64,000 nucleotides of DNA from contig CP000070.1 in assembly GCA_000002445.1 (NCBI GenBank), positions 2,141,234 to 2,205,233 on the forward strand. Reading direction: 5' to 3'. The notes beneath the pieces were generated by a model that searched no databases, was not told the DNA's origin, and worked only from the letters and a program-made list of their open reading frames with translations. The position numbers and the translations under genes were made by a program. Shown here one piece after another: positions 23,601-53,180 of the stretch. Source of the stretch: Trypanosoma brucei (Eukaryota). Position 1 is the stretch's first letter. The number at the start of each line of letters is the position of its first letter.

Positions 23601-24004
23601 TATCAGGGGTGAACGGCAGGCAAAAGGTGCGCTTTAGTGACATTTGTGCACTTCAACATTCTGTCAGGGACTGCGTTTTCTTTCCTTTGCATGCGGAAGC
23701 CGTGAAGTGGAAGTGGACTCGGTACTACGATAAGGCTAAGCTTGAAGGGCTCACCAAGACTCACTTCCTTCCCCCGCTATCGGAAAGTACTCGTTGGCGT
23801 GGCGCATCAAGCAGGTGTTCACTTTCTTACCAAAAGTAGTAGTAAAATGCGGGTGGTGGCTGAGGGTGTTGTCAAATTTGAAGTACCAACCCGATGAACC
23901 GTTCTAGGGTGCAAACACAAGCTAAGCACTTCGATTTAGGAATTTCATTTGCACTTCACTTCAATTACTGTTACCGATTGGTCTGTATGCGCATAGCCCC
24001 ACTA

Positions 24005-24095
24005 ATCTCTTTTCCCTCTTCCTACCGCTTAATTTACATGAATACTGGTCATGTGATTCGCTACGCTTGTCCCCAACTTGCCCTTTGGATCGCAG
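24005..24095 (+). promoter_or_regulatory. Putative trans-splicing acceptor (polypyrimidine tract plus first downstream AG) for the RING-protein gene
   Basis: A ctcttttccctcttcctaccgctt tract, with the first downstream AG at 24094-24095, lies 2 nt before the ATG. Confidence 0.35.
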
Positions 24096-24097
24096 AT

Positions 24098-33562: not shown

Positions 33563-35109
33563 AGGGGCGCCAGTGAGTGTATCCCTTACGCGTCTATGCG
33601 CTGCGGTGCCATGGCGTTGGTCAATATGGTTACATGAGTGCCGTGTAGGACGATGCCAGTGTGAGCCAGCGGGATGCTATAAGAATTTGCGTAGCATCTT
33701 GCGCTTCAAAGGAAAAGAAAAGGAGGTGAAAAAGATGGTGGCTCGTGGGTCACTTTTCAACTTCTTTCGTCTTAATTTAAAACATAGGGGGTTTGCTGTA
33801 AGGCTCATCCTTTCCTTTCTTCCCTTCACCACTTTTTCTCCCACTTTATTTACTTATACTTTTTTTTCCTTTTTCAAAATGGGAATAACTTTACTGCAGC
33901 GGTTGTTAACGGATTTCAGATGAACGGGGGAGGCGCGGTGTTGTGTCTTGGTTTTGATGTCTGTTCGCACTTTGGAAGGATAAAGGCACAAAGAAAAAAA
34001 AGGGGGACGATAACATTATTATTGCCTTACTTCTTCCTTAAACACCTTTCGGCTATTCTGTTTTGCTACTGTTGTTGTTGTTGTTGTTGTTTTTGTCAGT
34101 GGTTCTTTGTGGAGCACTCTGGGAGCCCTTTCGTCTAGGGCGGACTCCTTTGCCTTCATCCAGATGTTCTTGCGGGGTGTTCTCTAACATAAAGAAGAGG
34201 AAATAGTAATAGTATGAGAGGGTGGTGGTGGAGGGAAAGGATCTCATCGCTAACGATGACTGTAAGGTTGGTTCGGTAAGTTGTGCGTGCGCAACGCGTG
34301 TCATCATGCAGCATTCAGCCCTCAGATATGTATTGCTCGGTTCGTTGTCCAATGCCATCTTTTAAAAAGATGTGTGTGTGTGTGTGTGCTTCTCGTGTGA
34401 TGGAAGCGCTGGTTTGCGCTTTGCCTACTTCGGCCCCATCGGATTCTTACATGCGTGTGGTGCGGGGGGAGGGGAGACGTTTTAGCGCTGTGCATCAGCA
34501 CCTTTTAGGAATGTCAAATGCATCCAGCCGCTGGCAAAACTGAGGTTGTGTTTCGTATTTCTGGTCACACGATAACTGCACATGTCGCATTCCACACATC
34601 AGTTACTTGTTTTGTTTTTTTTTTTCGTCAACCGGTCACGTAATGATCGCTCGTGTAAGGCTGTGGTGCCCAGCGAAACTACTCCCGAGACTGCTATGGC
34701 GGCCGGCGTTTATGCCCGCTTTAGTTTGCGTGAGAAGCGCCATCTGTGTGGAATGGTGGGTCTGCGGTGCTAAGCATATACAAGCCCAATTTTGTGTGTG
34801 TGTTTCCGGGAGTTTGGTAGTGAGGAACTGTTTTTTTTTTTCCCTCTCATTTCCCGTAACATACGACCCGGATCATTTTTTTTTCTTTTTTTGCATGTGG
34901 GGAGGGGTGACTTTCGTGCACAAGTGGGGAAGCACACTGAGTTTGCTGAGAGCGCCAGTCGTCTGCGCACAAGCAGACGTGGGTGTCGGCCAAAACTGAT
35001 GTGCCACCATTATGAGAAACTATGAGTTGTATTGTAAAGGCGTAACTGCCGTCTCCTCTTTTTTCTTCCCATGTTTGAAGAGACTTCGAACAGCAAGTGG
35101 CAGAGTTGC

Positions 35110-35808
35110 ATGGAAATGGAGCAGGCTCCAGCGGTGGTAATATTCAGGCTTCTCACCGCGCTGATTTGCGCATCGAACATTGCAGTTGAGGCTTTCAATG
35201 TCGAGGGAGGTGTGAAGGATTTGAAAGAAGCAAATACGATGGTAAGGCACGGGATCCAGTTGGAGAGAATATCAGAGGACATCGCAAAATGTCTGAAGCA
35301 CGATAAGGAAGACCCTGAAGGTTGGGAAAAGGCTTGCAATCTCGCTGAGGAAGCGCTGGATATGCTTAAAAGAATAGCTGGCGAGCTTAATGGACCAAGG
35401 GGAAATGTGGCTGAAAAGCCAGAAGCAAAACAGGGACATAGTGAGAAGATAACTGGAGGTTGGAGAGATTGGAGGAGGGAATCAATAAAACCAAGAATAG
35501 GTGTAAATGGCTCTTCCCCAACCGCAATGGGGACGACTGAGATGTATGTTTCGGTTGTGAAAGTATGTGTGGAAGGAGGTGGTGTGACAAGCATATGTTT
35601 AGTTGGTAGTGCCTCCAGCGTTAAACCTAACAGCAAGGATCTTCAGTTTGATTTTGATGCGTGTGTCCAGCACTGGATAGATATTATAGGTGAATGTGGA
35701 GATCCTACGATTATGGGTATGTCAACACTGCCTGGTGGCGATGCAACAAAAGGGGACCGTCAGAAACAAAAAGAAGAGAACCACACTCTTCAAACTCCTT
35801 CCTCCTAG
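35110..35808 (+). CDS. Hypothetical protein with a predicted N-terminal signal peptide, about 232 aa
   Basis: The ORF at 35071..35808 is in the sense orientation of the plus-strand block. The internal ATG at 35110 gives MEMEQAPAVVIFRLLTALICASNIAVEA, a signal-peptide-like start. No recognisable domain. It is overlapped by a low-complexity antisense ORF, which was rejected. Confidence 0.4.
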   Translation: MEMEQAPAVVIFRLLTALICASNIAVEAFNVEGGVKDLKEANTMVRHGIQLERISEDIAKCLKHDKEDPEGWEKACNLAEEALDMLKRIAGELNGPRGNVAEKPEAKQGHSEKITGGWRDWRRESIKPRIGVNGSSPTAMGTTEMYVSVVKVCVEGGGVTSICLVGSASSVKPNSKDLQFDFDACVQHWIDIIGECGDPTIMGMSTLPGGDATKGDRQKQKEENHTLQTPSS

Positions 35809-38800
35809 TAATTTTTGCTACAATGCTTTTCCTTCACGGAAGATGTGGATGCTATATTATTAAAGAAACTTGTGGGGAGAGAATGTGGTATAGGTGTGTT
35901 TAATTCCTCTGCGTTTTTGGTGCTTCTTTGCATGATCTTTTTTTTTTATTATCAAAGCGCCAACGTTGTAATAGGGGTTATAAAATAAACTCCTCATCTT
36001 TATTACACCTCACAGAAATGCGATTTAATATTGTTAGTCCCTTATTCCTCGGAGGAATGGAATGTCACGGTATCGCAATTTATGATTTTATATGTTGAAT
36101 CCTTCAACGTGCTAACACTATCATTCTCTTCACTTACTTGAACGAAAAGGGCTCTCAGGAACAAGAAGCGACCGTTTCTTTACGCGATACGGGTTTTGAC
36201 ATGATATTGCCGCGATAAATCATATTGCAAAAATTACAGGTCTCCAATATGTCGCAGTCTAAATAAACAGACTTTAATTACGCTGATGAATGTAGCAAGA
36301 GAAATTGAGTGAGAATGCGTGTTGGCTTTGCATCGCGGCATTATAAGTATTACGCATCCGCGTTGGCAGAAATTAGTGCACGCACAGAGCACCTTGGCCA
36401 GCAAGTAGCGGTGACAAATTTGGGTCGATGACTGTTGGACGTGATGATCTTGCGCCTACAGAAGATTGTGCCGAGAAGCGAGATCAAATAAGCGAGTCCC
36501 TTAACAAAAGGTCGGAATGGCTCAGATTATTACTTTTCGTCCGGATTGGAAGGAGTGTGTGGTTTTTGCGTTTGGTGTGGATTACGACAAGTCGTCGGGT
36601 GGAGATCCCGGCACCGATACGGAAGCATTTCCAATGGAACAGGGACAGTGTAGCGCTCCTCGATTGGTTGGTGACACCCAAGACAGCCAAGTCCAATTCA
36701 CACCGAGCAGGTCGTTAAGTTCGCATTCGGGGATTAGGACGCTCTCGATATTACGCGACTACTCTCCACTTTGAAGTTCAAGGAACATGTAACAACGCTC
36801 ACAACAACCAAAGTCGAACGTATTCTGACTTCATGGGAGGTGATGACGCACCCCGTTAGAAGAGGGGCCTTTACAGCATGCTGCAGCCACAATTTGTGGA
36901 AGAACATAGCATGGATCCTCACATTATTCCCCAACTGATTAAGCACATCTATCCGTTCCACTTGCCGAGGAACACTGTCAGCCACTTGGATAAATACACC
37001 GCCATGTTGACTAATATGTAGAATATAGTCTCTATGATGTAACCCATGTCTTAGATGAAGGATAAGAGCCATGGGAGCCGCCAGGGCGTTGTCCCTTCAA
37101 GACGCACGGTTATACGATAACAAGGAGGGCGCACGCCACACGCCTGTTGAATACGCAGGACAAGGCTTCCATTCCTTTACAGCAAGTGCACGTCCCGCTG
37201 CTGGAGATATATTGAATCATTTCTCGCTTAAATTCGAGTGTGGAATGTAGATTTCAACATCTCTGGGGACTGATCGGACTGAGACCAAAAGGGACCAGTG
37301 AAAGGAGCCCTCAGGTTATTTCCATCGGCGATGATCGTTTACTTTGGAAGGTCGGTAGCGTAAAGGATGCCTCTTCCGCACCAACAGGAGCTCGGGTCAT
37401 CCCTCTTCTCAATTGCAGAGGATAAACTCTCCAACGAGCGTCGCTGGTGAATTGCGGGGCCTCAAGAGAAATAACAAAAGCGGATGAACCTTACGAGGCA
37501 ATTGTTCCTTTTGGAACACATTTCAAAATACCTCCATGCGGTTACTATCCTGAGTTGTCGACTTTTTCTGTCTGTTTTTTTTTTATTTTTTCTTAGAGGC
37601 GTTACGTCGTCGTCTTTTGCCTCGGACAGAGAACTTGTCCCCGCTACAGAGGCCGCTTTGTTGCCACTGTCCGCACTTGGTTTAGTAAGCGGGTATTGCT
37701 TTTTTGCCTGTTTAAAAATAAGAAACGCACGGTTACACCCAATTGGGAACCCGCAGTTGATTTGGTCACAGATGGCTCTTTGAGGGGTTGTGGGTCTGGG
37801 GCATGTCCTCTTATTGGATTCCGGTGAGGTGAAAATAATGTTATGTGGTGTAGTTGGTTTAAGTTCCCTTTTCTTATCATGCAGGCTCAGGCCCGTGTCC
37901 TCCGACTCTCCTCAGTAGCATTCGTGGAATCCTTTCCCCCTGAGTATTGACATTTGGGTTGATAATACATTCCTGTAAGGCGCGGAAACAAAAGGAAACA
38001 CAAAAGCCTACGGTCTTTCCGTGGCCATGGATGAGATGTTTATGATATTTGGTTCCCACAACATTAGCACAAATTACTCGTTTAACCGCTCCGTCAGCAA
38101 ACCGGCGGTCGGCTCCCGCGGAGGCACACGGTTTAACTGTGCAAAGTTAGTGAAAGAGTGCAACTTACAAAAGGAAGTGGCGGTGTCCCGAGGCTTTTGG
38201 GGACCACATGAACTGCCCTTTCACAAGTCTACTGTGAAATAAATATTCCGCTGCTGCTTGCCACCTAAGTTTGTGTCAGATGGGTATTGATGATTATAGA
38301 TTTAGTTTGCAACTCCTTGTTCCCCTCTATTTCATTTTCTTCCTCCATACATTAAGAGATCAAACAACTCCGAAATCCATATTCTCATCAACATTATTGT
38401 CTGTACGGTGGTTCTGTGAAGTTTTTCACTTCTAATGTGTTGTTACCAGTTGCGTTCATACACCTAAGATGTGTACGTTAAGAAGGTGAAGCGTGTGAAG
38501 TGGACGTTGCCACAAAGTAAAACTATCATCTGGTGCTGATTCAACGTGTTTGCTTCAATCCCTTTTTACATCTCCCCTGTGGATATTTTGGTTTGTGAGA
38601 GGTATCTCTCAAATGAAACTGCTGCCGACAACTATTTGCAACATCTAATACCTGTGCATAGCTTCCTGCATGTTTCCGTATGCTTCTTGTAACTTTCCTC
38701 ATATTCCCTCGTACCCGTTCTCTCTCTTTTACCTTTAGACAACCAAGGAATATGAAGCTGAGCAATGTCTGCCATGCTGTTGTCAGTTGAATGTTAACTG

Positions 38801-39161
38801 TGACTGCTAGTGTGCTTTGTTTTTGTTACTGGAATCCAGTCTATGATATTATAATGCTCCATTTACGCATTTACTCTTATGCCTAGTGATGTTTTATGTT
38901 TTTATATCGGATACATGAATGATGTGTGTGTGTGGGAATGTGTGTTGAACTACTTTCACACTGTTGTGGTTTGTATAATGTTATCCACTACAGTAGTTCC
39001 CTTTCCTACACTCTTATATACAATTATCATATGGAGTCTTATTGTGCCACAATCCAACATATCTGTACATATGCAGTCTATTAATCCTGCACCAATACTT
39101 TGTTATTATGCCGTTTTTGTCCTGTAGTTTGAAAGTTGAATTACGTTGAGTTACCAGTATT

Positions 39162-42100
39162 ATGGTTATCTTCATGCGTGAATTGTATGTTAGGGATGGC
39201 GTAGTCACTTGCGTAGTGTTTTCTTTGTTACTACAGGTGCTGACTGCATCATCACTTGCAAGTGGTGAAATACAGGTAAAGGTATACAACATGTTATACA
39301 GTGGCAAGATTTCAGCAAAGGTATATGATCCTATTACTGCAGGCTTCAACGCATCTCTTACCAACGGAAAGTCGCCTTCAGGTGGTAAAGTGACAGTCAT
39401 ATATGTTCCACCTAAGAATGATTCAGATTATGTTGAACATCTGGAGAAAAACATGTCATTTGGCAATAACAACGAAATATCTGTTGTGCTGGGACCTGTG
39501 GGTGACAAAAACACTCTCAACTTAACCGAATATTTCAAAGAAAAAAAGGTGATTGGTTTCTCACCCTTCACAGGATCCAGTAAGGTACGCAGTTGGAATC
39601 CTAATCTGTACTTCCTGACGGCATCACCCGCTGCTGAGATGCTTGCTCTTCTCCGTTATGCTATCACTCAGTTACGGTTACATCGACTGGGTTTCATGTA
39701 CTTGAAAAATGTTTCTTATGGTGATGATGAATATGAACTTGCTGTGGAATTGACAACAAGGATGGATCGCAAACTGTGTGGTGTTTTTGCATTGAATAGT
39801 CAACTTCGTGAGGAATCGGATGTTAGTACCTTCACTGCGGAATGGGATAGGTTTGCCGATACTCGACCCCAGGGTGTGATTGTATTTGGCTCTCCAATCC
39901 CTGATACGAAGAGATTCCTGGTGAAATCATTAGAAGATGAAAGGACAAAAAATGGATATTTGCTCATACCCTCTACACTCCAATATGTGATCGACAACAA
40001 GTGGTCAGAAGAATTGAATAGGAGCAAATTTCCAGCCGATAAGACAATAATAACAGGGACTAATCCACTTGCGAAGGATGATGGCTATGATGCAATTAAA
40101 CGTTTTAACAGAGAAATGGCTAAGTTCCTGGAGGACAACAAAAATAATTTTTCGCATGACAAATGGAATGTTACCCTAGATGTTAACGAAAATAACTTCA
40201 CCGAGCAAGACACTGATGCTGAGCTGATGGTGAGTGGATGGATTGCTGGAGAGGTATTGAAGCAAGCAGTGAGCTGTCGCGAATGGCTAACTAACAGGGA
40301 TGTATTTATGAAATCACTTTACAATCAGCGTCGTTATGTAATTGATGATCTTGTGGTTGGTGACTTTGGTGGTGAGTGCCAAGGCATGGCGGGTGAGCGA
40401 GGTGCATCATGTTTATGTAACCAAGGTGGGAATGTGGTGTACATGAAGAAGATAGGAAAGGATCATCGGCTACATCCCATGAAGGAAGGTGCATTAACTC
40501 TTACTTCATCTCGCTGTTATCGAGACCTGTCACAGCTGTACGCCCCATTGAGTGGCATCGTGTTTAATATAACTGACAACCCTAAGGTGCTGCGGACTGC
40601 AGAGGCAATATACGATGGTGCCTCTTATGTTGTTGGAAAGGGTCAACTGGGTCACTCTGATAGATTCTTTTTGCACTGGCTATCCTCGGAATCTCATGAT
40701 ACTTCTACAACTCTGTATGATGAAGTGAAGGAGCGAGTTGTAACTGCTGTGTTTGGTGTTGTGGATGATTCGTTACTGCGGACGAAGGGTATGACATTCA
40801 TCGATCCTATAATACTCACACCACAGCTGAGTGACCCCAGAAGGAATGTGATTCACCTGTCACCAACACTTGAGCAGCAACTATTCGTGATAGCTGAGCA
40901 TATCATACAAAATGGTACAGGAAAGATGCACGCCATTGTGCGTGGTGGTGATGCGAAAGGCATTGGCGATATGCTGAACAAAACCCTTGACTACTTTTTC
41001 GGTTCACTAAGCTCTCTTTCTGCGATTGGTGAGGGTTCTATTTTGAGAGACAAGCTACCGACTGCAGGTGAGGTGTTAGTTGCAGGTCTCACCTCAGATG
41101 ATATTCCAATAATCCTCTCTCACCTTGGCAAACACCATAAGGTGCGTATCTTTGTCCCGTTCTTTGATGTTGCGTTACTCTATGATGAACTTGTGAATGC
41201 CTTCCGTGACAAGCCATTTGCTGACCGTCTGCTATTCGCGACGAATCTGCCGCATTGGAGGGATAAGAACACGGGATCCGATATGGTACGTGAGTTCCAC
41301 AATGTTGTACAGAATGAGTCGAAGTGGAAGCCATTGTCATTACTTGGATATGCCACTGCACGTGCAATGATAAATGTGCTGCAACGTATGGGACATGTAA
41401 CGCCGGAGGAGCTTGTAGACGCCATCTTCGGTCAGTCTGTCATTACAGTTGATGATATGCGATATGGTCCTTTTGAAGACAAGTGTACTAACGGAGTTTC
41501 ATCTGAAGAGAAACACTGTGCTGTGAACTATGGTGCAACGCATATTTCTGTATGGTCGATGTCACGTGTTCTGAATCCTTCCGTGTCTCCTGTAGTGAAT
41601 TCTATCACACCATCAATGAAGTATAATGAACCAAAATGGATTCGACTAATAAATAAGCATATTGGTGCTGTGGCAGCTGGCTGCATTGTTCTGTTGGCGC
41701 TGTTTGTTACGGTTCTGGCACTTATTGTAAAGGCATCACGCCGTAACGCACGTGACAATAATAATGCTCCCAAGGAACCAACAGACCCCGTAACATTAAT
41801 ATTCACTGACATCGAGAGCAGTACAGCGCAGTGGGCAGCACACCCTGAGCAAATGCCTGACCTTGTGGCAACACATCACCGTTTGATCCGCTCCCTCATC
41901 ACACGGTATGAGTGCTACGAAGTGAAAACTGTTGGAGACTCTTTTATGATCGCATGTAAAAGTCCATTCGCCGCCGTCCAACTCGCATGTGACTTGCAAC
42001 GTGATTTTCTAAACCATGACTGGAATACCACTGAGCTTGATGAATCTTACCGTGAATTCGAACGGCAGCGTGCGGAAGATGACAGTGATTACACGCCACC

Positions 42101-42893
42101 AACTGCGAGCCTGGACCCTGAGGTTTATCGGCAACTGTGGAATGGGTTGCGTGTACGTGTAGGGATTCATACTGGATTGTGTGATATTCGTCATGATGAA
42201 GTAACGAAGGGTTACGACTATTATGGACGCACATCCAACATGGCAGCACGCACGGAGAGTGTTGGTAACGGTGGTCAGGTGCTGATGACGCGCTCAACAT
42301 ACCTGTCACTGAGTGGTGAGGAGCGTGAGCAAATTGATGTAACGCCTTTGGGTGATGTGCCGCTACGTGGTGTGCCGAAGCCTGTGGAAATGTACCAGTT
42401 GAATGCTGTACCTGGCCGCAACTTTGCTGCATTACGGCTTGACCGTGAAGCTGAGGAGGAAGAAGATAATGGAACTGGTAGTATCACTAGTGAGTCAGGA
42501 TCCCTCGCACATGGTTTAACTGCCACTGCCCAACAAGTTGCTGGTTGTATTGACGCTCTGCTTGGCACATTCCCTGCTGCCCAACGACAGAAGATGCTTG
42601 CAACTTTTTGTGAGCGTTGGCGTGTTAAGAAACCCCCAGGTGTGGATAGTTGGAATGAAGCCAGTTGTCGCTCTGTTACTCGTCGGATTGCTGCGAAGGT
42701 GGGTTGTGTTATGGATTTTGGAACGAGAAATACCTCTGGTAGCGTGGCTTCCTTTGAAAGGGGTGGAAGTCTCTTCTCACCTGGAGGAGTTGCTGCTGTA
42801 ATGCTTGCCTCATCCTCAAGCTCTTCCTGCGTTGCGGGACGCTGTGGTACCGTACAATTGATTGACCCAGAAAGTGCTAGCGCCGCCAGCTAA
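39162..42893 (+). CDS. GRESAG4: Receptor-type adenylate cyclase GRESAG4, tandem copy 1, 1243 aa
   Basis: Signal peptide, large ectodomain, a TM segment (IGAVAAGCIVLLALFVTVLALIV), then a class III cyclase domain (FTDIESSTAQWA, KTVGDSFMIACKSPF, GIHTGLCDIRHDEV, YYGRTSNMAARTES). A polypyrimidine tract (39098..39124) with an AG at 39126-39127 lies 34 nt upstream of the ATG. Confidence 0.92.
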   Translation: MVIFMRELYVRDGVVTCVVFSLLLQVLTASSLASGEIQVKVYNMLYSGKISAKVYDPITAGFNASLTNGKSPSGGKVTVIYVPPKNDSDYVEHLEKNMSFGNNNEISVVLGPVGDKNTLNLTEYFKEKKVIGFSPFTGSSKVRSWNPNLYFLTASPAAEMLALLRYAITQLRLHRLGFMYLKNVSYGDDEYELAVELTTRMDRKLCGVFALNSQLREESDVSTFTAEWDRFADTRPQGVIVFGSPIPDTKRFLVKSLEDERTKNGYLLIPSTLQYVIDNKWSEELNRSKFPADKTIITGTNPLAKDDGYDAIKRFNREMAKFLEDNKNNFSHDKWNVTLDVNENNFTEQDTDAELMVSGWIAGEVLKQAVSCREWLTNRDVFMKSLYNQRRYVIDDLVVGDFGGECQGMAGERGASCLCNQGGNVVYMKKIGKDHRLHPMKEGALTLTSSRCYRDLSQLYAPLSGIVFNITDNPKVLRTAEAIYDGASYVVGKGQLGHSDRFFLHWLSSESHDTSTTLYDEVKERVVTAVFGVVDDSLLRTKGMTFIDPIILTPQLSDPRRNVIHLSPTLEQQLFVIAEHIIQNGTGKMHAIVRGGDAKGIGDMLNKTLDYFFGSLSSLSAIGEGSILRDKLPTAGEVLVAGLTSDDIPIILSHLGKHHKVRIFVPFFDVALLYDELVNAFRDKPFADRLLFATNLPHWRDKNTGSDMVREFHNVVQNESKWKPLSLLGYATARAMINVLQRMGHVTPEELVDAIFGQSVITVDDMRYGPFEDKCTNGVSSEEKHCAVNYGATHISVWSMSRVLNPSVSPVVNSITPSMKYNEPKWIRLINKHIGAVAAGCIVLLALFVTVLALIVKASRRNARDNNNAPKEPTDPVTLIFTDIESSTAQWAAHPEQMPDLVATHHRLIRSLITRYECYEVKTVGDSFMIACKSPFAAVQLACDLQRDFLNHDWNTTELDESYREFERQRAEDDSDYTPPTASLDPEVYRQLWNGLRVRVGIHTGLCDIRHDEVTKGYDYYGRTSNMAARTESVGNGGQVLMTRSTYLSLSGEEREQIDVTPLGDVPLRGVPKPVEMYQLNAVPGRNFAALRLDREAEEEEDNGTGSITSESGSLAHGLTATAQQVAGCIDALLGTFPAAQRQKMLATFCERWRVKKPPGVDSWNEASCRSVTRRIAAKVGCVMDFGTRNTSGSVASFERGGSLFSPGGVAAVMLASSSSSSCVAGRCGTVQLIDPESASAAS

Positions 42894-45800
42894 TATTCCC
42901 CGTACCATTGCTGTATTTGCGCTTTGCTATTGAAGTGAATGAATAAGTTGTTTTACATGACGTTTGCAAGTTTTTATTTAGATTCATTTCGTATAAAGTG
43001 ACCATTATAACTTTCCCTCCCCATTCTTGTGCATGCAATGATCTCCTCATACGGTAGATGCTTTAAATACCTTTGTACATGAAGATGCTTTTTGTTTCTG
43101 ACATGGCTACTCTACTTTTGATAACTGTATTTGAAGATCGTAAATTTTCTTTTAATTCGTATGTTGAGGGATGGAAACGCACATGTTACTATTTTACATT
43201 CTGTTTCTTTTCGTCAGTGTTAATTATTCCATTAATTTTTCAAAAAGTCGTGGAGATAATGTGGACGAGAGGTGTTTAATTCTCACTGGCTCTTCTCACT
43301 TCATTTTCTTCATATGGTCTTTGTTTGACTGATGGAGACAGTCGTGACGTTGTAATAGGGGTTATAAAATAAACTCCTCATCTTTATTACACCTCACAGA
43401 AATGCCATTTAATATTGTTAGTCCCTTATTCCTCGGAGGAATGGAATGTCACGGTATCGCAATTTATGATTTTATATGTTGAATCCTTCAACGTGCTAAC
43501 ACTATCATTCTCTTCACTTACTTGAACGAAAAGGGCTCTCAGGAACAAGAAGCGACTGTTTCTTTACGCGATACGGGCTTTGACATGATATTGTCGCGAT
43601 AAATCATATTGCAAAAATTACAGGTCTCCAATATGTCGCAGTCTAAATAAACAGACTTTAATTACGCTGATGAATGTAGCAAGAGAAATTGAGTGAGAAT
43701 GCGTGTTGGCTTTGCATCGCGGCATTATGAATAAGTATTACGCATCCGCGTTGGCAGAAATTAGTGCACGCACAGAGCACCTTGGCCAGCAAGTAGCGGT
43801 GACAAATTTGGGTCGATGACTGTTGGACGTGATGATCTTGCGCCTACAGAAGATTGTGCCGAGAAGCGAGATCAAATAAGCGAGTCCCTTAACAAAAGGT
43901 CGGAATGGCTCAGATTATTACTTTTCGTCCGGATTGGAAGGAGTGTGTGGTTTTTGCGTTTGGTGTGGATTACGACAAGTCGCCGGGTGGAGATCCCGGC
44001 ACCGATACGGAAGCATTTCCAATGGAACAGGGACAGTGTAGCGCTCCTCGATTGGTTGGTGACACCCAAGACAGCCAAGTCCAATTCACACCGAGCAGGT
44101 CGTTAAGTTCGCATTCGGGGATTAGGACGCTCTCGATATTACGCGACTACTCTCCACTTTGAAGTTCAAGGAACATGTAACAACGCTCACAACAACCAAA
44201 GTCGAACGTATTCTGACTTCATGGGAGGTGATGACGCACCCCGTTAGAAGAGGGGCCTTTACAGCATGCTGCAGCCACAATTTGTGGAAGAACATAGCAT
44301 GGATCCTCACATTATTCCCCAACTGATTAAGCACATCTATCCGTTCCACTTGCCGAGGAACACTGTCAGCCACTTGGATAAATACACCGCCATGTTGACT
44401 AATATGTAGAATATATTCTCTATGATGTAACCCATGTCTTAGATGAAGGATAAGAGCCATGGGAGCCGCCAGGGCGTTGTCCCTTCAAGACGCACGGTTA
44501 TACGATAACAAGGAGGGCGCACGCCACACGCCTGTTGAATACGCAGGACAAGGCTTCCATTCCTTTACAGCAAGTGCACGTCCCGCTGCTGGAGATATAT
44601 TGAATCATTTCTCGCTTAAATTCGAGTGTGGAATGTAGATTTCAACATCTCTGGGGACTGATCGGACTGAGACCAAAAGGGACCAGTGAAAGGAGCCCTC
44701 AGGTTATTTCCATCGGCGATGATCGTTTACTTTGGAAGGTCGGTAGCGTAAAGGATGCCTCTTCCGCACCAACAGGAGCTCGGGTCATCCCTTTTCTCAA
44801 TTGCAGAGGATAAACTCTCCAACGAGCGTCGCTGGTGAATTGCGGGGCCTCAAGAGAAATAACAAAAGCGGATGAACCTTACGAGGCAATTGTTCCTTTT
44901 GGAACACATTTCAAAATACCTTCATGCGGTTACTATCCTGAGTTGTCGACTTTTTCTGTCTGTTTTTTTTTTATTTTTTCTTAGAGGCGTTACGTCGTCG
45001 TCTTTTGCCTCGGACAGAGAACTTGTCCCCGCTACAGAGGCCGCTTTGTTGCCACTGTCCGCACTTGGTTTAGTAAGCGGGTATTGCTTTTTTGCCTGTT
45101 TAAAAATAAGAAACGCACGGTTACACCCAATTGGGAACCCGCAGTTGATTTGGTCACAGATGGCTCTTTGAGGGGTTGTGGGTCTGGGGCATGTCCTCTT
45201 ATTGGATTCCGGTGAGGTGAAAATAACGTTATGTGGTGTAGTTGGTTTAAGTTCCCTTTTCTTATCATGCAGGCTCAGGCCCGTGTCCTCCGACTCTCCT
45301 CAGTAGCATTCGTGGAATCCTTTCCCCCTGAGTATTGACATTTGGGTTGATAATACATTCCTGTAAGGCGCGGAAACAAAAGGAAACACAAAAGCCTACG
45401 GTCTTTCCGTGGCCATGGATGAGATGTTTATGATATTTGATTCCCACAACATTGGCACAAATTACTCGTTTAACCGCTCCGTCAGCAAACCGGCGGTCGG
45501 CTCCCGCGGAGGCACACGGTTTAACTGTGCAAAGTTAGTGAAAGAGTGTAACTTACAAAAGGAAGTGGCGGTGTCCCGAGGCTTTTGGGGACCACATGAA
45601 CTGCCCTTTCACAAGTCTACTGTGAAATAAATATTCCGCTGCTGCTTGCCACCTAAGTTTGTGTCAGATGGGTATTGATGATTATAGATTTAGTTTGCAA
45701 CTCCTTGTTCCCCTCTATTTCATTTTCTTCCTCCATACATTAAGAGATCAAACAACTCCGAAATCCATATTCTCAACAACATTATTGTCTGTACGGTGGT

Positions 45801-46549
45801 TCTGTGAAGTTTTTCACTTCTAATGTGTTGTTACCAGTTGCGTTCATACACCTAAGATGTGTACGTTAAGAAGGTGCAGCGTGTGAAGTGGAGGTTGCCA
45901 CAAAGTAAAACTATCATCTGGTGCTGATTCAACGTGTTTGCTTCAATCCCTTTTTACATCTCCCCTGTGGATATTTTGGTTTGTGGGAGGTATCTCTCAA
46001 ATGAAACTGCTGCCGACAACTATTTGCAACATCTAATACCTGTGCATAGCTTCCTGCATGTTTCCGTATGCTTCTTGTAACTTTCCTCATATTCCCTCGT
46101 ACCCATTCTCTCTCTTTTACCTTTAGACAACCAAGGAATATGAAGCTGAGCAATGTCTGCCATGCTGTTGTCAGTTGAATGTTAACTGTGACTGCTAGTG
46201 TGCTTTGTTTTTGTTACTGGAATCCAGTCTATGATATTATAATGCTCCATTTACGCATTTACTCTTATGCCTAGTGATGTTTTATGTTTTTATATCGGAT
46301 ACATGAATGATGTGTGTGTGTGGGAATGTGTGTTGAATTACTTTCACACTGTTGTGGTTTGTATAATGTTATCCACTACAGTAGTTCCCTTTCCTACACT
46401 CTTATATACAATTATCATATGGAGTCTTATTGTGCCACAATCCAACATATCTGTACATATGCAGTCTATTAATCCTGCACCAATACTTTGTTATTATGCC
46501 GTTTTTGTCCTGTAGTTTGAAAGTTGAATTACGTTGAGTTACCAGTATT

Positions 46550-49500
46550 ATGGTTATCTTCATGCGTGAATTGTATGTTAGGGATGGCGTAGTCACCTAC
46601 GTAGTGTTTTCTTTGTTACTACAGGTGCTGACTGCATCATCACTTGCAAGTGGTGAAATACAGGTAAAGGTATACAACATGTTATACAGTGGCAAGATTT
46701 CAGCAAAGGTATTTGATCCTATTACTGCAGGCTTCAACGCATCTCTTACCAACGGAAAGTCGCCTTCAGGTGGTAAAGTGACAGTCATATATGTTCCACC
46801 TAAGAATGATTCAGATTACGTTGAACATCTTAATAAGGAACCGTCATTTGTCAACTTAAACGAAATATCTGTTGTGCTGGGACCTGTGGGTGACAAAAAC
46901 ACTCTCGACTTAACCGAATATTTCAAAGAAAAAAAGGTGATTGGTTTCTCACCCTTCACAGGATCCAGTAAGGTACGCAGTTGGAATCCTAATCTGTACT
47001 TCCTGACGGCATCACCCGCTGCTGAGATGCTTGCTCTTCTCCGTTATGCTATCACTCAGTTACGGTTACATCGACTGGGTTTCATGTACTTGAAAAATGT
47101 TTCTTATGGTGATGATGAATATGAACTTGCTGTGGAATTGACAACAAGGATGGATCGCAAACTGTGTGGTGTTTTTGCATTGAATAGTCAACTTCGTGAG
47201 GAATCGGATGTTAGTACCTTCACTGCGGAATGGGATAGGTTTGCCGATACTCGACCCCAGGGTGTGATTGTATTTGGCTCTCCAATCCCTGATACGAAGA
47301 GATTCCTAATGAAATCATTAGAAGATGAAAGGACAAAAAATGGATATTTGCTCATACCCTCTACACTCCAATATGTGATCGACAACAAGTGGTCAGAAGA
47401 ATTGAATAGGAGCAAATTTCCAGCCGATAAGACAATAATAACAGGGACTAATCCACTTGCGAAGGATGATGGCTATGATGCAATTAAACGTTTTAACAGA
47501 GAAATGGCTAAGTTCCTGGAGGACAACAAACCTAATTTTTCTCATGACAAATGGAATGTTACCCTAAATTTTGACAAAGACAACTTCACCGAGCAAGACA
47601 CTGATGCTGAGCTGATGGTGAGTGGATGGATTGCTGGAGAGGTATTGAAGCAAGCAGTGAGCTGTCGCGAATGGCTAACTAACAGGGATGTATTTATGAA
47701 ATCACTTTACAATCAGCGTCGTTATGTAATTGATGATCTTGTGGTTGGTGACTTTGGTGGTGAGTGCCAAGGCATGGCGGGTGAGCGAGGTGCATCATGT
47801 TTATGTAACCAAGGTGGGAATGTGGTGTACATGAAGAAGATAGGAAAGGATCATCGGCTACATCCCATGAAGGAAGGTGCATTAACTCTTACTTCATCTC
47901 GCTGTTATCGAGACCTGTCACAGCTGTACGCCCCATTGAGTGGCATCGTGTTTAATATAACTGACAACCCTAAGGTGCTGCGGACTGCAGAGGCAATATA
48001 CGATGGTGCCTCTTATGTTGTTGGAAAGGGTCAACTGGGTCACTCTGATAGATTCTTTTTGCACTGGCTATCCTCGGAATCTCATGATACTTCTACAACT
48101 CTGTATGATGAAGTGAAGGAGCGAGTTGTAACTGCTGTGTTTGGTGTTGTGGATGATTCGTTACTGCGGACGAAGGGTATGACATTCATCGATCCTATAA
48201 TACTCACACCACAGCTGAGTGACCCCAGAAGGAATGTGATTCACCTGTCACCAACACTTGAGCAGCAACTATTCGTGATAGCTGAGCATATCATACAAAA
48301 TGGTACAGGAAAGATGCACGCCATTGTGCGTGGTGGTGATGCGAAAGGCATTGGCGATATGCTGAACAAAACCCTTGACTACTTTTTCGGTTCACTAAGC
48401 TCTCTTTCTGCGATTGGTGAGGGTTCTATTTTGAGAGACAAGCTACCGACTGCAGGTGAGGTATTGGTTGCAGGTCTCACCTCAGATGATATTCCAATAA
48501 TCCTCTCTCACCTTGGCAAACACCATAAGGTGCGTATCTTTGTCCCGTTCTTTGATGTTGCGTTACTCTATGATGAACTTGTGAATGCCTTCCGTGACAA
48601 GCCATTTGCTGACCGTCTGCTATTCGCGACGAATCTGCCGCATTGGAGGGATAAGAACACGGGATCCGATATGGTACGTGAGTTCCACAATGTTGTACAG
48701 AATGAGTCGAAGTGGAAGCCATTGTCATTACTTGGATATGCCACTGCACGTGCAATGATAAATGTGCTGCAACGTATGGGACATGTAACGCCGGAGGAGC
48801 TTGTAGACGCCATCTTCGGTCAATCTGTCATTACAGTTGATGATATGCGATATGGTCCTTTTGAAGACAAGTGTACTAACGGAGTTTCATCTGAAGAGAA
48901 ACACTGTGCTGTGAACTATGGTGCAACGCATATTTCTGTATGGTCGATGTCACGTGTTCTGAATCCTTCCGTGTCTCCTGTAGTGAATTCTGTCACACCA
49001 TCAATGAAGTATAATGAACCAAAATGGATTCGACTAATAAATAAGCATATTGGTGCTGTGGCAGCTGGCTGCATTGTTCTGTTGGCGCTGTTTGTTACGG
49101 TTCTGGCACTTATTGTAAAGGCATCACGCCGGAACGCACGTGACAATAATAATGCTCCCAAGGAACCAACAGACCCCGTAACATTAATATTCACTGACAT
49201 CGAGAGCAGTACAGCGCAGTGGGCAGCACACCCTGAGCAAATGCCTGACCTTGTGGCAACACATCACCGTTTGATCCGCTCCCTCATCACACGGTATGAG
49301 TGCTACGAAGTGAAAACTGTTGGAGACTCTTTTATGATTGCATGTAAAAGTCCATTCGCCGCCGTCCAACTCGCATGTGACTTGCAACGTGATTTTCTAA
49401 ACCATGACTGGAATACCACTGAGCTTGATGAATCTTACCGTGAATTCGAACGGCAGCGTGCGGAAGATGACAGTGATTACACGCCACCAACTGCGAGCCT

Positions 49501-50281
49501 GGACCCTGAGGTTTATCGGCAACTGTGGAATGGGTTGCGTGTACGTGTAGGGATTCATACTGGATTGTGCGACATCCGCTACGATGAAGTGACGAAGGGT
49601 TACGACTATTATGGACGCACATCCAACATGGCAGCACGCACGGAGAGTGTTGGTAACGGTGGTCAGGTGCTGATGACGCGCTCAACATACCTGTCACTGA
49701 GTGGTGAGGAGCGTGAGCAAATTGATGTAACGCCTTTGGGTGATGTGCCGCTACGTGGTGTGCCGAAGCCTGTGGAAATGTACCAGTTGAATGCTGTACC
49801 TGGCCGCAACTTTGCTGCATTACGGCTTGACCGTGAAGCTGAGGAGGAAGAAGATAATGGAACTGGTAGTATCACTAGTGAGTCAGGATCCCTCGCACAT
49901 GGTTTAACTGCCACTGCCCAACAAGTTGCTGGTTGTATTGACGCTCTGCTTGGCACATTCCCTGCTGCCCAACGACAGAAGATGCTTGCAACTTTTTGTG
50001 AGCGTTGGCGTGTTAAGAAACCCCCAGGTGTGGATAGTTGGAATGAAGCCAGTTGTCGCTCTGTTACTCGTCGGATTGCTGCGAAGGTGGGTTGTGTTAT
50101 GGATTTTGGAACGAGAAATACCTCTGGTAGCGTGGCTTCCTTTGAAAGGGGTGGAAGTCTCTTCTCACCTGGAGGAGTTGCTGCTGTAATGCTTGCCTCA
50201 TCCTCAAGCTCTTCCTGCGTTGCGGGACGCTGTGGTACCGTACAATTGATTGACCCAGAAAGTGCTAGCGCCGCCAGCTAA
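46550..50281 (+). CDS. GRESAG4: Receptor-type adenylate cyclase GRESAG4, tandem copy 2, 1243 aa
   Basis: Same length and architecture as copy 1. It differs from copy 1 at about 20 residues clustered in three patches (aa 94-105, 326-345, and the DIR[H/Y]DEV site), plus a few singletons (C17Y, Y55F, V250M, I831V). Confidence 0.92.
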   Translation: MVIFMRELYVRDGVVTYVVFSLLLQVLTASSLASGEIQVKVYNMLYSGKISAKVFDPITAGFNASLTNGKSPSGGKVTVIYVPPKNDSDYVEHLNKEPSFVNLNEISVVLGPVGDKNTLDLTEYFKEKKVIGFSPFTGSSKVRSWNPNLYFLTASPAAEMLALLRYAITQLRLHRLGFMYLKNVSYGDDEYELAVELTTRMDRKLCGVFALNSQLREESDVSTFTAEWDRFADTRPQGVIVFGSPIPDTKRFLMKSLEDERTKNGYLLIPSTLQYVIDNKWSEELNRSKFPADKTIITGTNPLAKDDGYDAIKRFNREMAKFLEDNKPNFSHDKWNVTLNFDKDNFTEQDTDAELMVSGWIAGEVLKQAVSCREWLTNRDVFMKSLYNQRRYVIDDLVVGDFGGECQGMAGERGASCLCNQGGNVVYMKKIGKDHRLHPMKEGALTLTSSRCYRDLSQLYAPLSGIVFNITDNPKVLRTAEAIYDGASYVVGKGQLGHSDRFFLHWLSSESHDTSTTLYDEVKERVVTAVFGVVDDSLLRTKGMTFIDPIILTPQLSDPRRNVIHLSPTLEQQLFVIAEHIIQNGTGKMHAIVRGGDAKGIGDMLNKTLDYFFGSLSSLSAIGEGSILRDKLPTAGEVLVAGLTSDDIPIILSHLGKHHKVRIFVPFFDVALLYDELVNAFRDKPFADRLLFATNLPHWRDKNTGSDMVREFHNVVQNESKWKPLSLLGYATARAMINVLQRMGHVTPEELVDAIFGQSVITVDDMRYGPFEDKCTNGVSSEEKHCAVNYGATHISVWSMSRVLNPSVSPVVNSVTPSMKYNEPKWIRLINKHIGAVAAGCIVLLALFVTVLALIVKASRRNARDNNNAPKEPTDPVTLIFTDIESSTAQWAAHPEQMPDLVATHHRLIRSLITRYECYEVKTVGDSFMIACKSPFAAVQLACDLQRDFLNHDWNTTELDESYREFERQRAEDDSDYTPPTASLDPEVYRQLWNGLRVRVGIHTGLCDIRYDEVTKGYDYYGRTSNMAARTESVGNGGQVLMTRSTYLSLSGEEREQIDVTPLGDVPLRGVPKPVEMYQLNAVPGRNFAALRLDREAEEEEDNGTGSITSESGSLAHGLTATAQQVAGCIDALLGTFPAAQRQKMLATFCERWRVKKPPGVDSWNEASCRSVTRRIAAKVGCVMDFGTRNTSGSVASFERGGSLFSPGGVAAVMLASSSSSSCVAGRCGTVQLIDPESASAAS

Positions 50282-53180
50282 TATTCCCCGTACCATTGCT
50301 GTATTTGCGCTTTGCTATTGAAGTGAATGAATAAGTTGTTTTACATGACGTTTGCAAGTTTTTATTTAGATTCATTTCGTATAAAGTGACCATTATAACT
50401 TTCCCTCCCCATTCTTGTGCATGCAATGATCTCCTCATACGGTAGATGCTTTAAATACCTTTGTACATGAAGATGCTTTTTGTTTCTGACATGGCTACTC
50501 TACTTTTGATAACTGTATTTGAAGATCGTAAATTTTCTTTTAATTCGTATGTTGAGGGATGGAAACGCACATGTTACTATTTTACATTCTGTTTCTTTTC
50601 GTCAGTGTTAATTATTCCATTAATTTTTCAAAAAGTCGTGGAGATAATGTGGACGAGAGGTGTTTAATTCTCACTGGCTCTTCTCACTTCATTTTCTTCT
50701 TCATATGGTCTTTGTTTGACTGATGGAGACAGTCGTGACGTTGTAATAGGGGTTATAAAATAAACTCCTCATCTTTATTACACCTCACAGAAATGCCATT
50801 TAATATTGTTAGTCCCTTATTCCTCGGAGGAATGGAATGTCACGGTATCGCAATTTATGATTTTATATGTTGAATCCTTCAACGTGCTAACACTATCATT
50901 CTCTTCACTTACTTGAACGAAAAGGGCTCTCAGGAACAAGAAGCGACTGTTTCTTTACGCGATACGGGCTTTGACATGATATTGTCGCGATAAATCATAT
51001 TGCAAAAATTACAGGTCTCCAATATGTCGCAGTCTAAATAAACAGACTTTAATTACGCTGATGAATGTAGCAAGAGAAATTGAGTGAGAATGCGTGTTGG
51101 CTTTGCATCGCGGCATTATGAATAAGTATTACGCATCCGCGTTGGCAGAAATTAGTGCACGCACAGAGCACCTTGGCCAGCAAGTAGCGGTGACAAATTT
51201 GGGTCGATGACTGTTGGACGTGATGATCTTGCGCCTACAGAAGATTGTGCCGAGAAGCGAGATCAAATAAGCGAGTCCCTTAACAAAAGGTCGGAATGGC
51301 TCAGATTATTACTTTTCGTCCGGATTGGAAGGAGTGTGTGGTTTTTGCGTTTGGTGTGGATTACGACAAGTCGCCGGGTGGAGATCCCGGCACCGATACG
51401 GAAGCATTTCCAATGGAACAGGGACAGTGTAGCGCTCCTCGATTGGTTGGTGACACCCAAGACAGCCAAGTCCAATTCACACCGAGCAGGTCGTTAAGTT
51501 CGCATTCGGGGATTAGGACGCTCTCGATATTACGCGACTACTCTCCACTTTGAAGTTCAAGGAACATGTAACAACGCTCACAACAACCAAAGTCGAACGT
51601 ATTCTGACTTCATGGGAGGTGATGACGCACCCCGTTAGAAGAGGGGCCTTTACAGCATGCTGCAGCCACAATTTGTGGAAGAACATAGCATGGATCCTCA
51701 CATTATTCCCCAACTGATTAAGCACATCTATCCGTTCCACTTGCCGAGGAACACTGTCAGCCACTTGGATAAATACACCGCCATGTTGACTAATATGTAG
51801 AATATAGTCTCTATGATGTAACCCATGTCTTAGATGAAGGATAAGAGCCATGGGAGCCGCCAGGGCGTTGCCCCTTCAAGACGCACGGTTATACGATAAC
51901 AAGGAGGGCGCACGCCACACGCCTGTTGAATACGCAGGACAAGGCTTCCATTCCTTTACAGCAAGTGCACGTCCCGCTGCTGGAGATATATTGAATCATT
52001 TCTCGCTTAAATTCGAGTGTGGAATGTAGATTTCAACATCTCTGGGGACTGATCGGACTGAGACCAAAAGGGACCAGTGAAAGGAGCCCTCAGGTTATTT
52101 CCATCGGCGATGATCGTTTACTTTGGAAGGTCGGTAGCGTAAAGGATGCCTCTTCCGCACCAACAGGAGCTCGGGTCATCCCTTTTCTCAATTGCAGAGG
52201 ATAAACCCTCCAACGAGCGTCGCTGGTGAATTGCGGGGCCTCAAGAGAAATAACAAAAGCGGATGAACCTTACGAGGCAATTGTTCCTTTTGGAACACAT
52301 TTCAAAATACCTCCATGCGGTTACTATCCTGAGTTGTCGACTTTTTCTGTCTGTTTTTTTTTTATTTTTTCTTAGAGGCGTTACGTCGTCGTCTTTTGCC
52401 TCGGACAGAGAACTTGTCCCCGCTACAGAGGCCGCTTTGTTGCCACTGTCCGCACTTGGTTTAGTAAGCGGGTATTGCTTTTTTGCCTGTTTAAAAATAA
52501 GAAACGCACGGTTACACCCAATTGGGAACCCGCAGTTGATTTGGTCACAGATGGCTCTTTGAGGGGTTGTGGGTCTGGGGCATGTCCTCTTATTGGATTC
52601 CGGTGAGGTGAAAGTAATGTTATGTGGTGTAGTTGGTTTAAGTTCCCTTTTCTTATCATGCAGGCTCAGGCCCGTGTCCTCCGACTCTCCTCAGTAGCAT
52701 TCGTGGAATCCTTTCCCCCTGAGTATTGACATTTGGGTTGATAATACATTCCTGTAAGGCGCGGAAACAAAAGGAAACACAAAAGCCTACGGTCTTTCCG
52801 TGGCCATGGATGAGATGTTTATGATATTTGATTCCCACAACATTAGCACAAATTACTCGTTTAACCGCTCCGTCAGCAAACCGGCGGTCGGCTCCCGCGG
52901 AGGCACACGGTTTAACTGTGCAAAGTTAGTGAAAGAGTGTAACTTACAAAAGGAAGTGGCGGTGTCCCGAGGCTTTTGGGGACCACATGAACTGCCCTTT
53001 CACAAGTCTACTGTGAAATAAATATTCCGCTGCTGCTTGCCACCTAAGTTTGTGTCAGATGGGTATTGATGATTATAGATTTAGTTTGCAACTCCTTGTT
53101 CCCCTCTATTTCATTTTCTTCCTTCATACATTAAGAGATCAAACAACTCCGAAATCCATATTCTCATCAACATTATTGTC

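What the first reader, a model, noticed from the sequence alone, without database searches (positions are those of the whole stretch)
35957..53180. Recent tandem duplication of a 7.39 kb GRESAG4 unit: three copies of the spacer segment but only two copies of the gene
Two complete units and a 2.44 kb partial third unit are more than 99% identical. The array boundaries fall inside the intergenic spacer, as expected for unequal sister-chromatid exchange. The array directly abuts the convergent strand-switch region. Copy number here is likely polymorphic between strains, and short-read assemblies are prone to collapsing or mis-counting it. Receptor cyclase dosage is biologically relevant, because this family modulates host innate immunity and social motility in T. 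brucei.
Basis: seen in the sequence. Interest (0 to 1): 0.55.

Follow-up and report, generated by a model that had tools for sequence, protein, structure and literature searches.

The report
Known tandem adenylate-cyclase gene pair, T. brucei
The repeat is real: it is the already annotated pair of receptor adenylate cyclase genes Tb927.7.7520/7530 on Trypanosoma brucei chromosome 7, an ordinary example of the recombining tandem gene arrays typical of this parasite, though older and more structured than a simple recent duplication.

Summary
Observation confirmed. Window 35963-53180 holds two full units (7384 and 7391 bp) and a 2443-bp third copy of the unit's first part, 99.25-99.35% identical. 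The window is T. b. brucei TREU927 chromosome 7. The two intact 1243-aa genes are the annotated neighbours XP_846372/XP_846373 (Tb927.7.7520/7530).

- The layout is A-B-A-B-A. B (4.9 kb) matches one unit of the chromosome-4 GRESAG4 array at about 88-89%. A (2.44 kb, non-coding, no detectable domain) is absent from that array. One duplication cannot give A at both ends.
- The right end of the array lies within 10-30 bp of where chromosome-4 homology starts. This favours an older A-B-A cassette expanded by crossover between A copies.
- The repeat is not TREU927-specific. DAL972 has the L|A and A|B junctions. Three short-read contigs from other strains stop exactly k-1 bases inside A. TREU927's A copies differ by 0.4-0.7% from each other but about 2.4% from DAL972's, which indicates concerted evolution.
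- The genes are not plain dosage copies: 29 of 42 coding differences sit in three short patches matching other paralogs.

Copy-number polymorphism could not be tested. Low novelty.

The parts
35071..35808 (+). Tb927.7.7510, an ESAG12-like gene (245 aa). It is the last unique gene before the array.
   Evidence: the listing of cluster members names it 'hypothetical protein Tb927.7.7510' / ESAG12. It is 95% identical to ESAG12 of the bloodstream expression sites.
35809..35962 (+). L-tail: unique left flank. It has weak old homology (about 65-70% over about 140 nt) to the last 160 nt of each B segment (43187-43326).
   Evidence: Local alignment score is 31 against a shuffle mean of 14.6, sd 2. It is the best non-self hit across the whole window.
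35963..38401 (+). A1: first copy of the 2.44-kb non-coding direct repeat.
   Evidence: No Pfam domain was found in seven long, mostly stop-free stretches taken from five of its six reading frames. There are no tRNA or Rfam matches and no tandem or inverted repeats.
38402..43346 (+). B1: GRESAG4 cassette. It comprises the 5' region 38402-39161, the CDS 39162-42893 (Tb927.7.7520, XP_846372) and the 3' region 42894-43346.
   Evidence: Pfam finds PF25495, PF25493 and PF00211. The protein is an exact match to XP_846372.1. It is 88-89% identical to units of the DAL972 chromosome-4 array over 38397-43151.
43347..45789 (+). A2: second copy of the direct repeat.
   Evidence: 99.30% identical to A1 and 99.63% to A3.
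45790..50737 (+). B2: second GRESAG4 cassette, with CDS 46550-50281 (Tb927.7.7530, XP_846373).
   Evidence: The protein is 98.6% identical to copy 1.
50738..53180 (+). A3: third copy of the direct repeat. It is followed by unique sequence, not by a gene.
   Evidence: No homology was found between 53181-53980 and the start of B. No cyclase fragment lies downstream.
39443..39470 (+). Difference patch 1 (codons 94-103; partner 46831-46858). It has 13 nucleotide differences. Copy 1 resembles the chromosome-4 types; copy 2 resembles the DAL972 chromosome-7 type.
40143..40193 (+). Difference patch 2 (codons 328-344; partner 47531-47581). It has 9 nucleotide differences. The copy 1 motif NENNFTEQD matches the chromosome-4 paralog P0004.
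49570..49591 (+). Difference patch 3 in the catalytic domain of copy 2 (partner 42182-42203 in copy 1). All 7 sites in copy 2 match the GRESAG4.2-type gene at 6273-9890. Copy 1 matches the chromosome-4 paralogs.
   Evidence: copy 2 is identical to the upstream gene over 101 nt.
53181..57060 (.). Gene-poor convergent strand-switch region to the right of the array.
   Evidence: No ORF longer than 81 aa lies here. GC skew changes sign at about 54 kb. There are no tRNA or Rfam matches.
57061..61221 (-). Leucine-rich-repeat protein gene(s) (ESAG8-like LRRP) on the opposite strand.
   Evidence: Pfam LRR families. tblastn shows LRR homology down to 57061.
6273..9890 (-). The GRESAG 4.2 gene (XP_846367), 47% identical in protein sequence to the array genes. 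It, or an identical sequence, is the candidate donor of patch 3.

Best explanation
This is a genuine two-gene tandem array of receptor-type adenylate cyclases (Tb927.7.7520/7530) at the 3' end of a polycistronic transcription unit on T. b. brucei TREU927 chromosome 7.

Its architecture is A-B-A-B-A. B is a 4.9-kb GRESAG4 cassette of the same kind as the chromosome-4 array unit. A is a 2.44-kb non-coding, locus-specific segment that flanks every cassette as a direct repeat.

Shown: the layout, the homologies, the intact genes, and the presence of the L|A and A|B junctions in other T. brucei lineages.

Inferred:
1. An older A-B-A arrangement existed, in which a cassette sat between two copies of A, and A was originally contiguous with both present flanks.
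2. Unequal homologous recombination between A copies or whole units then gave A-B-A-B-A. The same process can add or remove 7.39-kb units.
3. That recombination, together with gene conversion, keeps the copies 99.3-99.6% alike while the locus has diverged by about 2.4% from T. b. gambiense. This is concerted evolution, not a recent origin.
4. Short ectopic conversion tracts from other GRESAG4 paralogs introduce clustered differences. As a result the two genes encode slightly different ectodomains.
For: - Array geometry and identity.
- Gene identity: the proteins are exact matches to XP_846372.1/XP_846373.1 of TREU927, on a 2,205,233-bp contig. The neighbouring gene is named Tb927.7.7510, and the pair is cited as Tb927.7.7520/7530 in PMC5176191.
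- Both genes are intact: signal peptide, PBP-like ectodomain, one transmembrane helix at residues 829-861, and a class III cyclase domain.
- B but not A is homologous to the DAL972 chromosome-4 GRESAG4 array at 88-89%. The chromosome-4 spacer aligns end to end with the chromosome-7 spacer once A is removed.
- Robust chromosome-4 homology begins 10-30 bp right of the A|B junction. That is the same point at which A3 meets the right flank.
- DAL972 chromosome 7 carries L|A and A|B at 96.5% identity and its assembly ends inside gene copy 1.
- The T. equiperdum OVI contig ends 63 nt into A, and two Logan contigs (k=31) end exactly 30 nt into A. This is the de Bruijn signature of a second left context for A.
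- A1, A2 and A3 differ from each other by 0.37-0.70%, but each differs from the DAL972 A by 2.4-2.5%. Flank divergence from DAL972 is about 2.0%.
- A1 differs from A2=A3 mainly in its first 640 bp, an edge effect.
- 29 of 42 coding differences fall within 101 nt. The largest count in any 60-nt window is 14, against at most 8 in 5000 random placements.
- Patch 3 equals the upstream GRESAG4.2-type gene at 7 of 7 sites over a 101-nt identical stretch. Patches 1 and 2 match motifs of chromosome-4 or DAL972 paralogs.
- Tandem GRESAG4 arrays, concerted evolution and gene conversion in T. brucei arrays are described in PMC1855330 and PMC2854126. Repeat-mediated amplification and deletion in trypanosomatids is described in the abstract of PMC8065229.
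Against: - No spanning reads or read depth were available, so the copy number in TREU927 rests on the deposited assembly.
- The contig-end evidence shows only that A has at least two left contexts in other strains. It does not show what the second context is, or how many units exist.
- Both novel junctions (A|B and B|A) are blunt, with no microhomology. This is not what the microhomology-dependent end joining known in T. brucei would predict (background knowledge, not checked against a paper here), so the event that first created A-B-A is unexplained.
- The last 160 nt of B resemble the L-tail at only 65-70%, which none of the simple scenarios predicts.
- Whether A occurs elsewhere in the genome could not be checked.
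Confidence: 0.78

Rival explanations
1. A simple, recent, one-step tandem duplication in the TREU927 lineage by unequal sister-chromatid exchange, with the partial third unit a by-product of breakpoints in the spacer.
For: The units are more than 99% identical. Outside the patches, divergence is only 0.36% in the CDS. The boundaries are intergenic.
Against: One exchange gives exactly two units, whereas here there are 2.33, with a complete extra A. The same left boundary behaves as a repeat edge in T. equiperdum and in two gambiense-like read sets. The DAL972 A is about equally distant, at roughly 2.4%, from all three TREU927 copies. If the structure is shared, that means homogenisation rather than recent origin.
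Confidence: 0.1
2. An array of three or more full units whose last gene was later removed by a deletion that happens to end at 53180.
For: This would also give A-B-A-B-A. Deletions next to strand-switch regions are plausible.
Against: The deletion end would have to fall within about 30 bp of the point where chromosome-4-type homology begins in a 7.39-kb unit. That is roughly a 1% coincidence. No remnant of B follows A3.
Confidence: 0.08
3. An assembly artefact: a single unit, or the two haplotypes, laid out in tandem in the reference.
For: Tandem repeats of 7 kb at 99% identity are hard to assemble. No reads could be inspected here.
Against: The three A copies are all different from one another, with 9-17 differing alignment columns per pair. 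The two genes differ by paralog-derived patches. Independent assemblies of other strains break at exactly the repeat edge or inside unit 1. Both genes have been separate RefSeq entries since the 2005 genome.
Confidence: 0.03

Closest known systems
GRESAG4 tandem arrays of T. brucei, for example Tb927.4.4410-4470 on chromosome 4 and Tb927.7.6050-6080 on chromosome 7 (Jackson 2007, PMC1855330; Jackson et al. 2010, PMC2854126)
   Same: Head-to-tail receptor adenylate cyclase genes inside a polycistronic unit. Copies are kept alike by concerted evolution, gene-conversion tracts occur between copies, and copy number differs between subspecies. B is 88-89% identical to the chromosome-4 unit.
   Different: There are only two genes. 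The spacer is 3.66 kb rather than 0.56-1.1 kb, because a 2.44-kb unrelated segment (A) sits in every spacer and at both ends of the array. This two-copy array does not appear in the passages and tables of those papers that I searched by text.
Subspecies-specific segmental duplications of adenylate cyclase units (6.5-6.8 kb, one gene, two copies) listed in Table 1 of PMC2854126
   Same: Similar unit size, one cyclase gene per unit, two copies, very low distance between copies.
   Different: Those were scored as present in one subspecies only. Here the repeat edge is shared by brucei, gambiense-like and equiperdum genomes.
Direct-repeat-mediated amplification and deletion in trypanosomatids (abstract of PMC8065229)
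   Same: Kilobase-scale direct repeats (A) flank a gene cassette, so homologous recombination can expand, contract or loop out the cassette.
   Different: No rearranged allele or circle was observed here. This is inferred from the architecture only.

Membership tests
Trypanosome receptor-type adenylate cyclase (ESAG4/GRESAG4 family) | Large N-terminal extracellular domain of periplasmic-binding-protein type | tested here: met
   PF25495 (E 2.5e-53), PF25493 (E 6e-144) and PF13458 are found in both copies.
Trypanosome receptor-type adenylate cyclase (ESAG4/GRESAG4 family) | N-terminal signal sequence and a single transmembrane helix between the ectodomain and the catalytic domain | tested here: met
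   A hydropathy scan finds hydrophobic segments at residues 8-35 and 829-861 only.
Trypanosome receptor-type adenylate cyclase (ESAG4/GRESAG4 family) | C-terminal class III cyclase catalytic domain | tested here: met
   PF00211 matches at residues 871-1081, E 7.5e-43.
Trypanosome receptor-type adenylate cyclase (ESAG4/GRESAG4 family) | Chromosome-internal location (GRESAG4), not in a telomeric VSG expression site (ESAG4) | tested here: met
   The proteins are exact matches to RefSeq entries named GRESAG 4 on the TREU927 2.2-Mb chromosome. They are flanked by housekeeping-type genes and there is no VSG or 70-bp repeat in the window.
Trypanosome receptor-type adenylate cyclase (ESAG4/GRESAG4 family) | Adenylate cyclase activity and flagellar membrane location | not testable with these tools
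   Available only from the literature. PMC5176191 states that Tb927.7.7520/7530 are flagellar and enriched in the salivary-gland stage.
Tandem gene array under concerted evolution | Head-to-tail units with a constant period, including the intergenic sequence | tested here: met
   Periods are 7384 and 7391 bp at 99.25% identity.
Tandem gene array under concerted evolution | Copies within a genome are more alike than orthologous copies between lineages that share the array | tested here: inconclusive
   Divergence is 0.4-0.7% within TREU927 and 2.4% to DAL972. That the other lineages have more than one copy is inferred only from contig ends at k-1 inside A. Their other copies were not seen.
Tandem gene array under concerted evolution | Copy number varies between strains | not testable with these tools
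   No read depth or long-read assemblies were available. The DAL972 and T. equiperdum assemblies are broken at the array.

The most novel reading that the evidence does not exclude
A is not just native flanking DNA but a discrete recombinogenic or mobile segment with fixed ends. It would capture and carry a GRESAG4 cassette in a composite, A-B-A transposon-like or circle-forming module. On this reading the chromosome-7 copy arose by cassette movement rather than local duplication, and similar A-flanked modules exist elsewhere in trypanosome genomes.
Probability: 0.05. Interest if true: 0.5.

Novelty: already known. Interest (0 to 1): 0.18.

Why it matters
For biology, this adds little. Tandem GRESAG4 arrays, their homogenisation and their gene-conversion mosaics are textbook features of T. 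brucei, and both genes have been annotated since 2005.

The practical points are three.
- The two genes are 98.6% identical, so short reads and peptides cannot tell them apart except at three patches.
- Assemblies of other strains break at this locus, so apparent absence of an orthologue is an assembly effect. No orthologue of at least 90% identity turned up among the DAL972 or T. equiperdum proteins in the collection searched.
- The A-flanked layout predicts gain, loss or looping-out of 7.39-kb units, which is testable with long reads.

The two products differ mostly in the ectodomain, so the pair may be more than a dosage duplicate.

Tried and rejected
There were no tRNA or tmRNA genes, no Rfam family at gathering score in the whole window, no tandem or inverted repeats, no terminal poly(A), and no other copy in the window or in the 23-kb DAL972 chromosome-4 locus.
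- I looked for a degenerate third gene after 53180. None was found by tblastn or by local alignment of the right flank with the start of B (score equal to the shuffle mean).
- I looked for microhomology at the A|B, B|A, L|A and A|R junctions. There is none.
- I tried to fetch the TREU927 locus itself and other strains through exact protein look-ups. The TREU927 proteins are not in that index.
- The third homology search, with the 2OG oxygenase, gave no DAL972 anchor. The anchor came instead from cluster members.
- The right junction (A|R) could not be examined in any other strain, because no protein anchor lies near it.
- A literature search for copy-number data on these two genes found none.
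- I rejected the idea that the array is a two-haplotype mis-assembly, and the idea of a truncated three-gene array. The reasons are given under the rival explanations.
Full report
**1. The observation**

A self-comparison of the window gives two alignments:
- 35963-45789 vs 43347-53180, 99.25% identity over 9836 columns.
- 35963-38401 vs 50738-53180, 99.35% over 2443 columns.

The repeat finder gives start-to-start spacings of 7388 and 7391. The array therefore consists of:
- unit 1: 35963-43346 (7384 bp)
- unit 2: 43347-50737 (7391 bp)
- a third copy of the first 2443 bp only: 50738-53180

Only two long ORFs lie in the array, 39162-42893 and 46550-50281, each 1243 aa. tblastn with the cyclase finds nothing after 53180.

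**2. Identity of the locus**

- Both ORFs carry the full receptor-cyclase architecture: PF25495, PF25493, PF13458 and PF00211, with a signal-like segment and one transmembrane helix at residues 829-861.
- The preceding gene (35071-35808) is named Tb927.7.7510 and is ESAG12-like. The gene before that is a 2OG-Fe(II) oxygenase (XP_846370).
- The two cyclases are therefore Tb927.7.7520 and Tb927.7.7530. That pair is reported as up-regulated in salivary-gland trypanosomes and as flagellar (PMC5176191). Tb927.7.7530 was also detected as an antigen (PMC3584999).
- Plus-strand genes run from about 23.9 kb to 50.3 kb. A leucine-rich-repeat gene occupies 57061-61221 on the minus strand, and GC skew changes sign at about 54 kb. 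The array does sit at the end of a transcription unit, against a convergent strand switch.

**3. Anatomy: A-B-A-B-A**

I call 35963-38401 'A', and 38402-43346 'B' (gene plus 760 bp upstream and 453 bp downstream). The sequence then reads L-A-B-A-B-A-R, where L and R are the unique left and right flanks.

A one-step duplication of a segment gives exactly two units. In that case, the stretch of 5' flank shared with the internal spacer plus the stretch of 3' flank shared with it should add up to the spacer length. Here they add up to 3199 + 2896 = 6095 bp against a spacer of 3656 bp. The excess is exactly one A.

A has no detectable content:
- no Pfam match in its long reading stretches
- no tRNA or Rfam match
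- no internal repeats

**4. Comparison with the closest paralogs**

The nearest relatives, at 81-85% protein identity, lie in the chromosome-4 GRESAG4 array. I fetched the DAL972 chromosome-4 array.
- It aligns with the window at 88-89% from 38397 or 38627 to 43151. That is B only, never A.
- Its 1117-bp spacer aligns end to end with the chromosome-7 spacer from which A has been removed.
- Firm homology starts 10-30 bp to the right of the A|B junction.

B is therefore one period of a chromosome-4-type array, and A is extra, locus-specific DNA. The point where A meets B (38401|38402) is the same point in A at which A3 meets the right flank (53180|53181).
- If the array had simply been three units with the last gene later deleted, this coincidence would have a chance of about 1%.
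- It is expected if A was originally contiguous with both present flanks, a cassette came to lie between two copies of A, and crossover between the A copies then gave A-B-A-B-A.

How the first A-B-A arose is not resolved:
- All junctions are blunt.
- The last 160 nt of B resemble the sequence just left of A1 at only 65-70%. No simple scenario predicts this.

**5. Other genomes**

- **DAL972 (T. b. gambiense) chromosome 7.** It is collinear with the window up to the array. It carries the L|A and A|B junctions at 96.5% identity, and the pseudomolecule ends inside the first cyclase gene.
- **T. equiperdum OVI.** A contig is collinear with 22623-36025 and ends 63 nt into A.
- **Logan contigs.** Two contigs from runs ERR7929156 and ERR7929157 are gambiense-like in sequence. 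They end exactly 30 nt into A, which is k-1 for k=31.

Ending exactly k-1 bases inside a repeat is what a de Bruijn assembler does when a sequence has two different left neighbours. So A appears to be repeated, with the same left boundary, in those genomes too.

The divergence figures are:

| Comparison | Divergence |
|---|---|
| TREU927 A copies, pairwise | 0.37-0.70% |
| Each TREU927 A copy vs the DAL972 A | 2.4-2.5% |
| Flanking DNA, TREU927 vs DAL972 | about 2.0% |

Taken together, the repeat structure predates the split of these lineages, and the copies are kept alike by recombination (concerted evolution). An edge effect fits this. A1 differs from A2=A3 mostly in its first 640 bp, next to the unique flank.

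These data also argue against an assembly artefact.

**6. The two genes are not identical**

- They differ at 42 of 3732 nucleotides and at 17 residues. Fifteen of those residues lie in the ectodomain, between residues 17 and 344.
- 29 of the 42 nucleotide differences lie in three patches totalling 101 nt. The densest 60-nt window holds 14 differences, against at most 8 in 5000 random placements.
- **Patch 3 (42182-42203 / 49570-49591).** Copy 2 matches the GRESAG4.2-type gene at 6273-9890 at all seven sites, within a 101-nt identical stretch. Copy 1 matches the chromosome-4 paralogs.
- **Patches 1 and 2.** Copy 1 carries motifs of chromosome-4 paralogs (for example NENNFTEQD as in P0004). Copy 2 resembles the DAL972 chromosome-7 sequence (SFVNL).

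These are short ectopic gene-conversion tracts. Outside the patches the coding divergence is 0.36%.

**7. Comparison with what is known**

Tandem arrays of GRESAG4 genes, their concerted evolution, conversion tracts between copies and subspecies differences in copy number have all been described (PMC1855330; PMC2854126). Repeat-mediated amplification and deletion is a general property of trypanosomatid genomes (abstract of PMC8065229).

The present array is a small member of this class, and both genes are in the reference annotation. Two things go slightly beyond what I found in those papers: the A-flanked architecture, and the inference that the cassette lies between old direct repeats. I could not search the supplements, or any genome browser.

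**8. Verdict**

It is a real tandem array at a convergent strand switch, and it is assembly-prone. It is not a simple recent duplication, and it is not a pure dosage pair.
- Copy-number polymorphism, and any role of these two genes in immunity or social motility, remain untested.
- Novelty is low.

Noticed in passing
L005 9460-9791 (DAL972 chromosome 7, FN554970.1, about 2218200-2218531): A 332-N gap in the DAL972 pseudomolecule has the same sequence (window 34989-35678) on both sides. The two annotated 202-aa 'ESAG12-like fragments' (CBH13046/CBH13047) therefore look like an unmerged contig overlap, not a real duplication.
   Followed up: partly
window 32600-33562 (+): The 2OG-Fe(II) oxygenase Tb927.7.7500 is 56-58% identical over 98% of its length to enzymes of Pseudomonas, Stutzerimonas and related bacteria. 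That is about as close as it is to some Leishmania homologues. It looks like an old bacterial-type acquisition in trypanosomatids.
   Followed up: no
window 32600-61221: The neighbourhood is a chromosome-internal cluster of relatives of expression-site genes: an ESAG12-like gene (95% identical to ESAG12 of bloodstream expression sites), two GRESAG4 genes and an ESAG8-like LRR protein. A member of the same 90%-identity cluster as the 2OG oxygenase may also come from an expression-site clone; I inferred that only from its accession, CAQ55508.
   Followed up: no
window 25000-32500 (+ strand transcription unit): About 7.5 kb lacks any ORF above 175 aa inside a transcribed unit, which is unusually long for T. 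brucei. It is conserved at 98% in DAL972.
   Followed up: no
window 57061-61221 (-): LRR homology continues about 1 kb beyond the stop of the 1045-aa ORF, into a separate 258-aa ORF (57184-57960). This is either a second LRRP gene or a frame-disrupted extension. The exact 1045-aa product is not in the protein collection.
   Followed up: no
proteins P0018 and P0033: Two full-length GRESAG4-type cyclases, 48-49% identical to the query, are deposited as Schistosoma mansoni proteins on 17-20 kb contigs. They are probably trypanosomatid contamination in that assembly.
   Followed up: no
window 6273-9890 (-): The upstream cyclase is the full-length gene for the historical partial sequence GRESAG 4.2 (Q99396, same 90% cluster). 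It has a DAL972 orthologue. Its catalytic-domain DNA is 82-83% identical to the array genes.
   Followed up: partly
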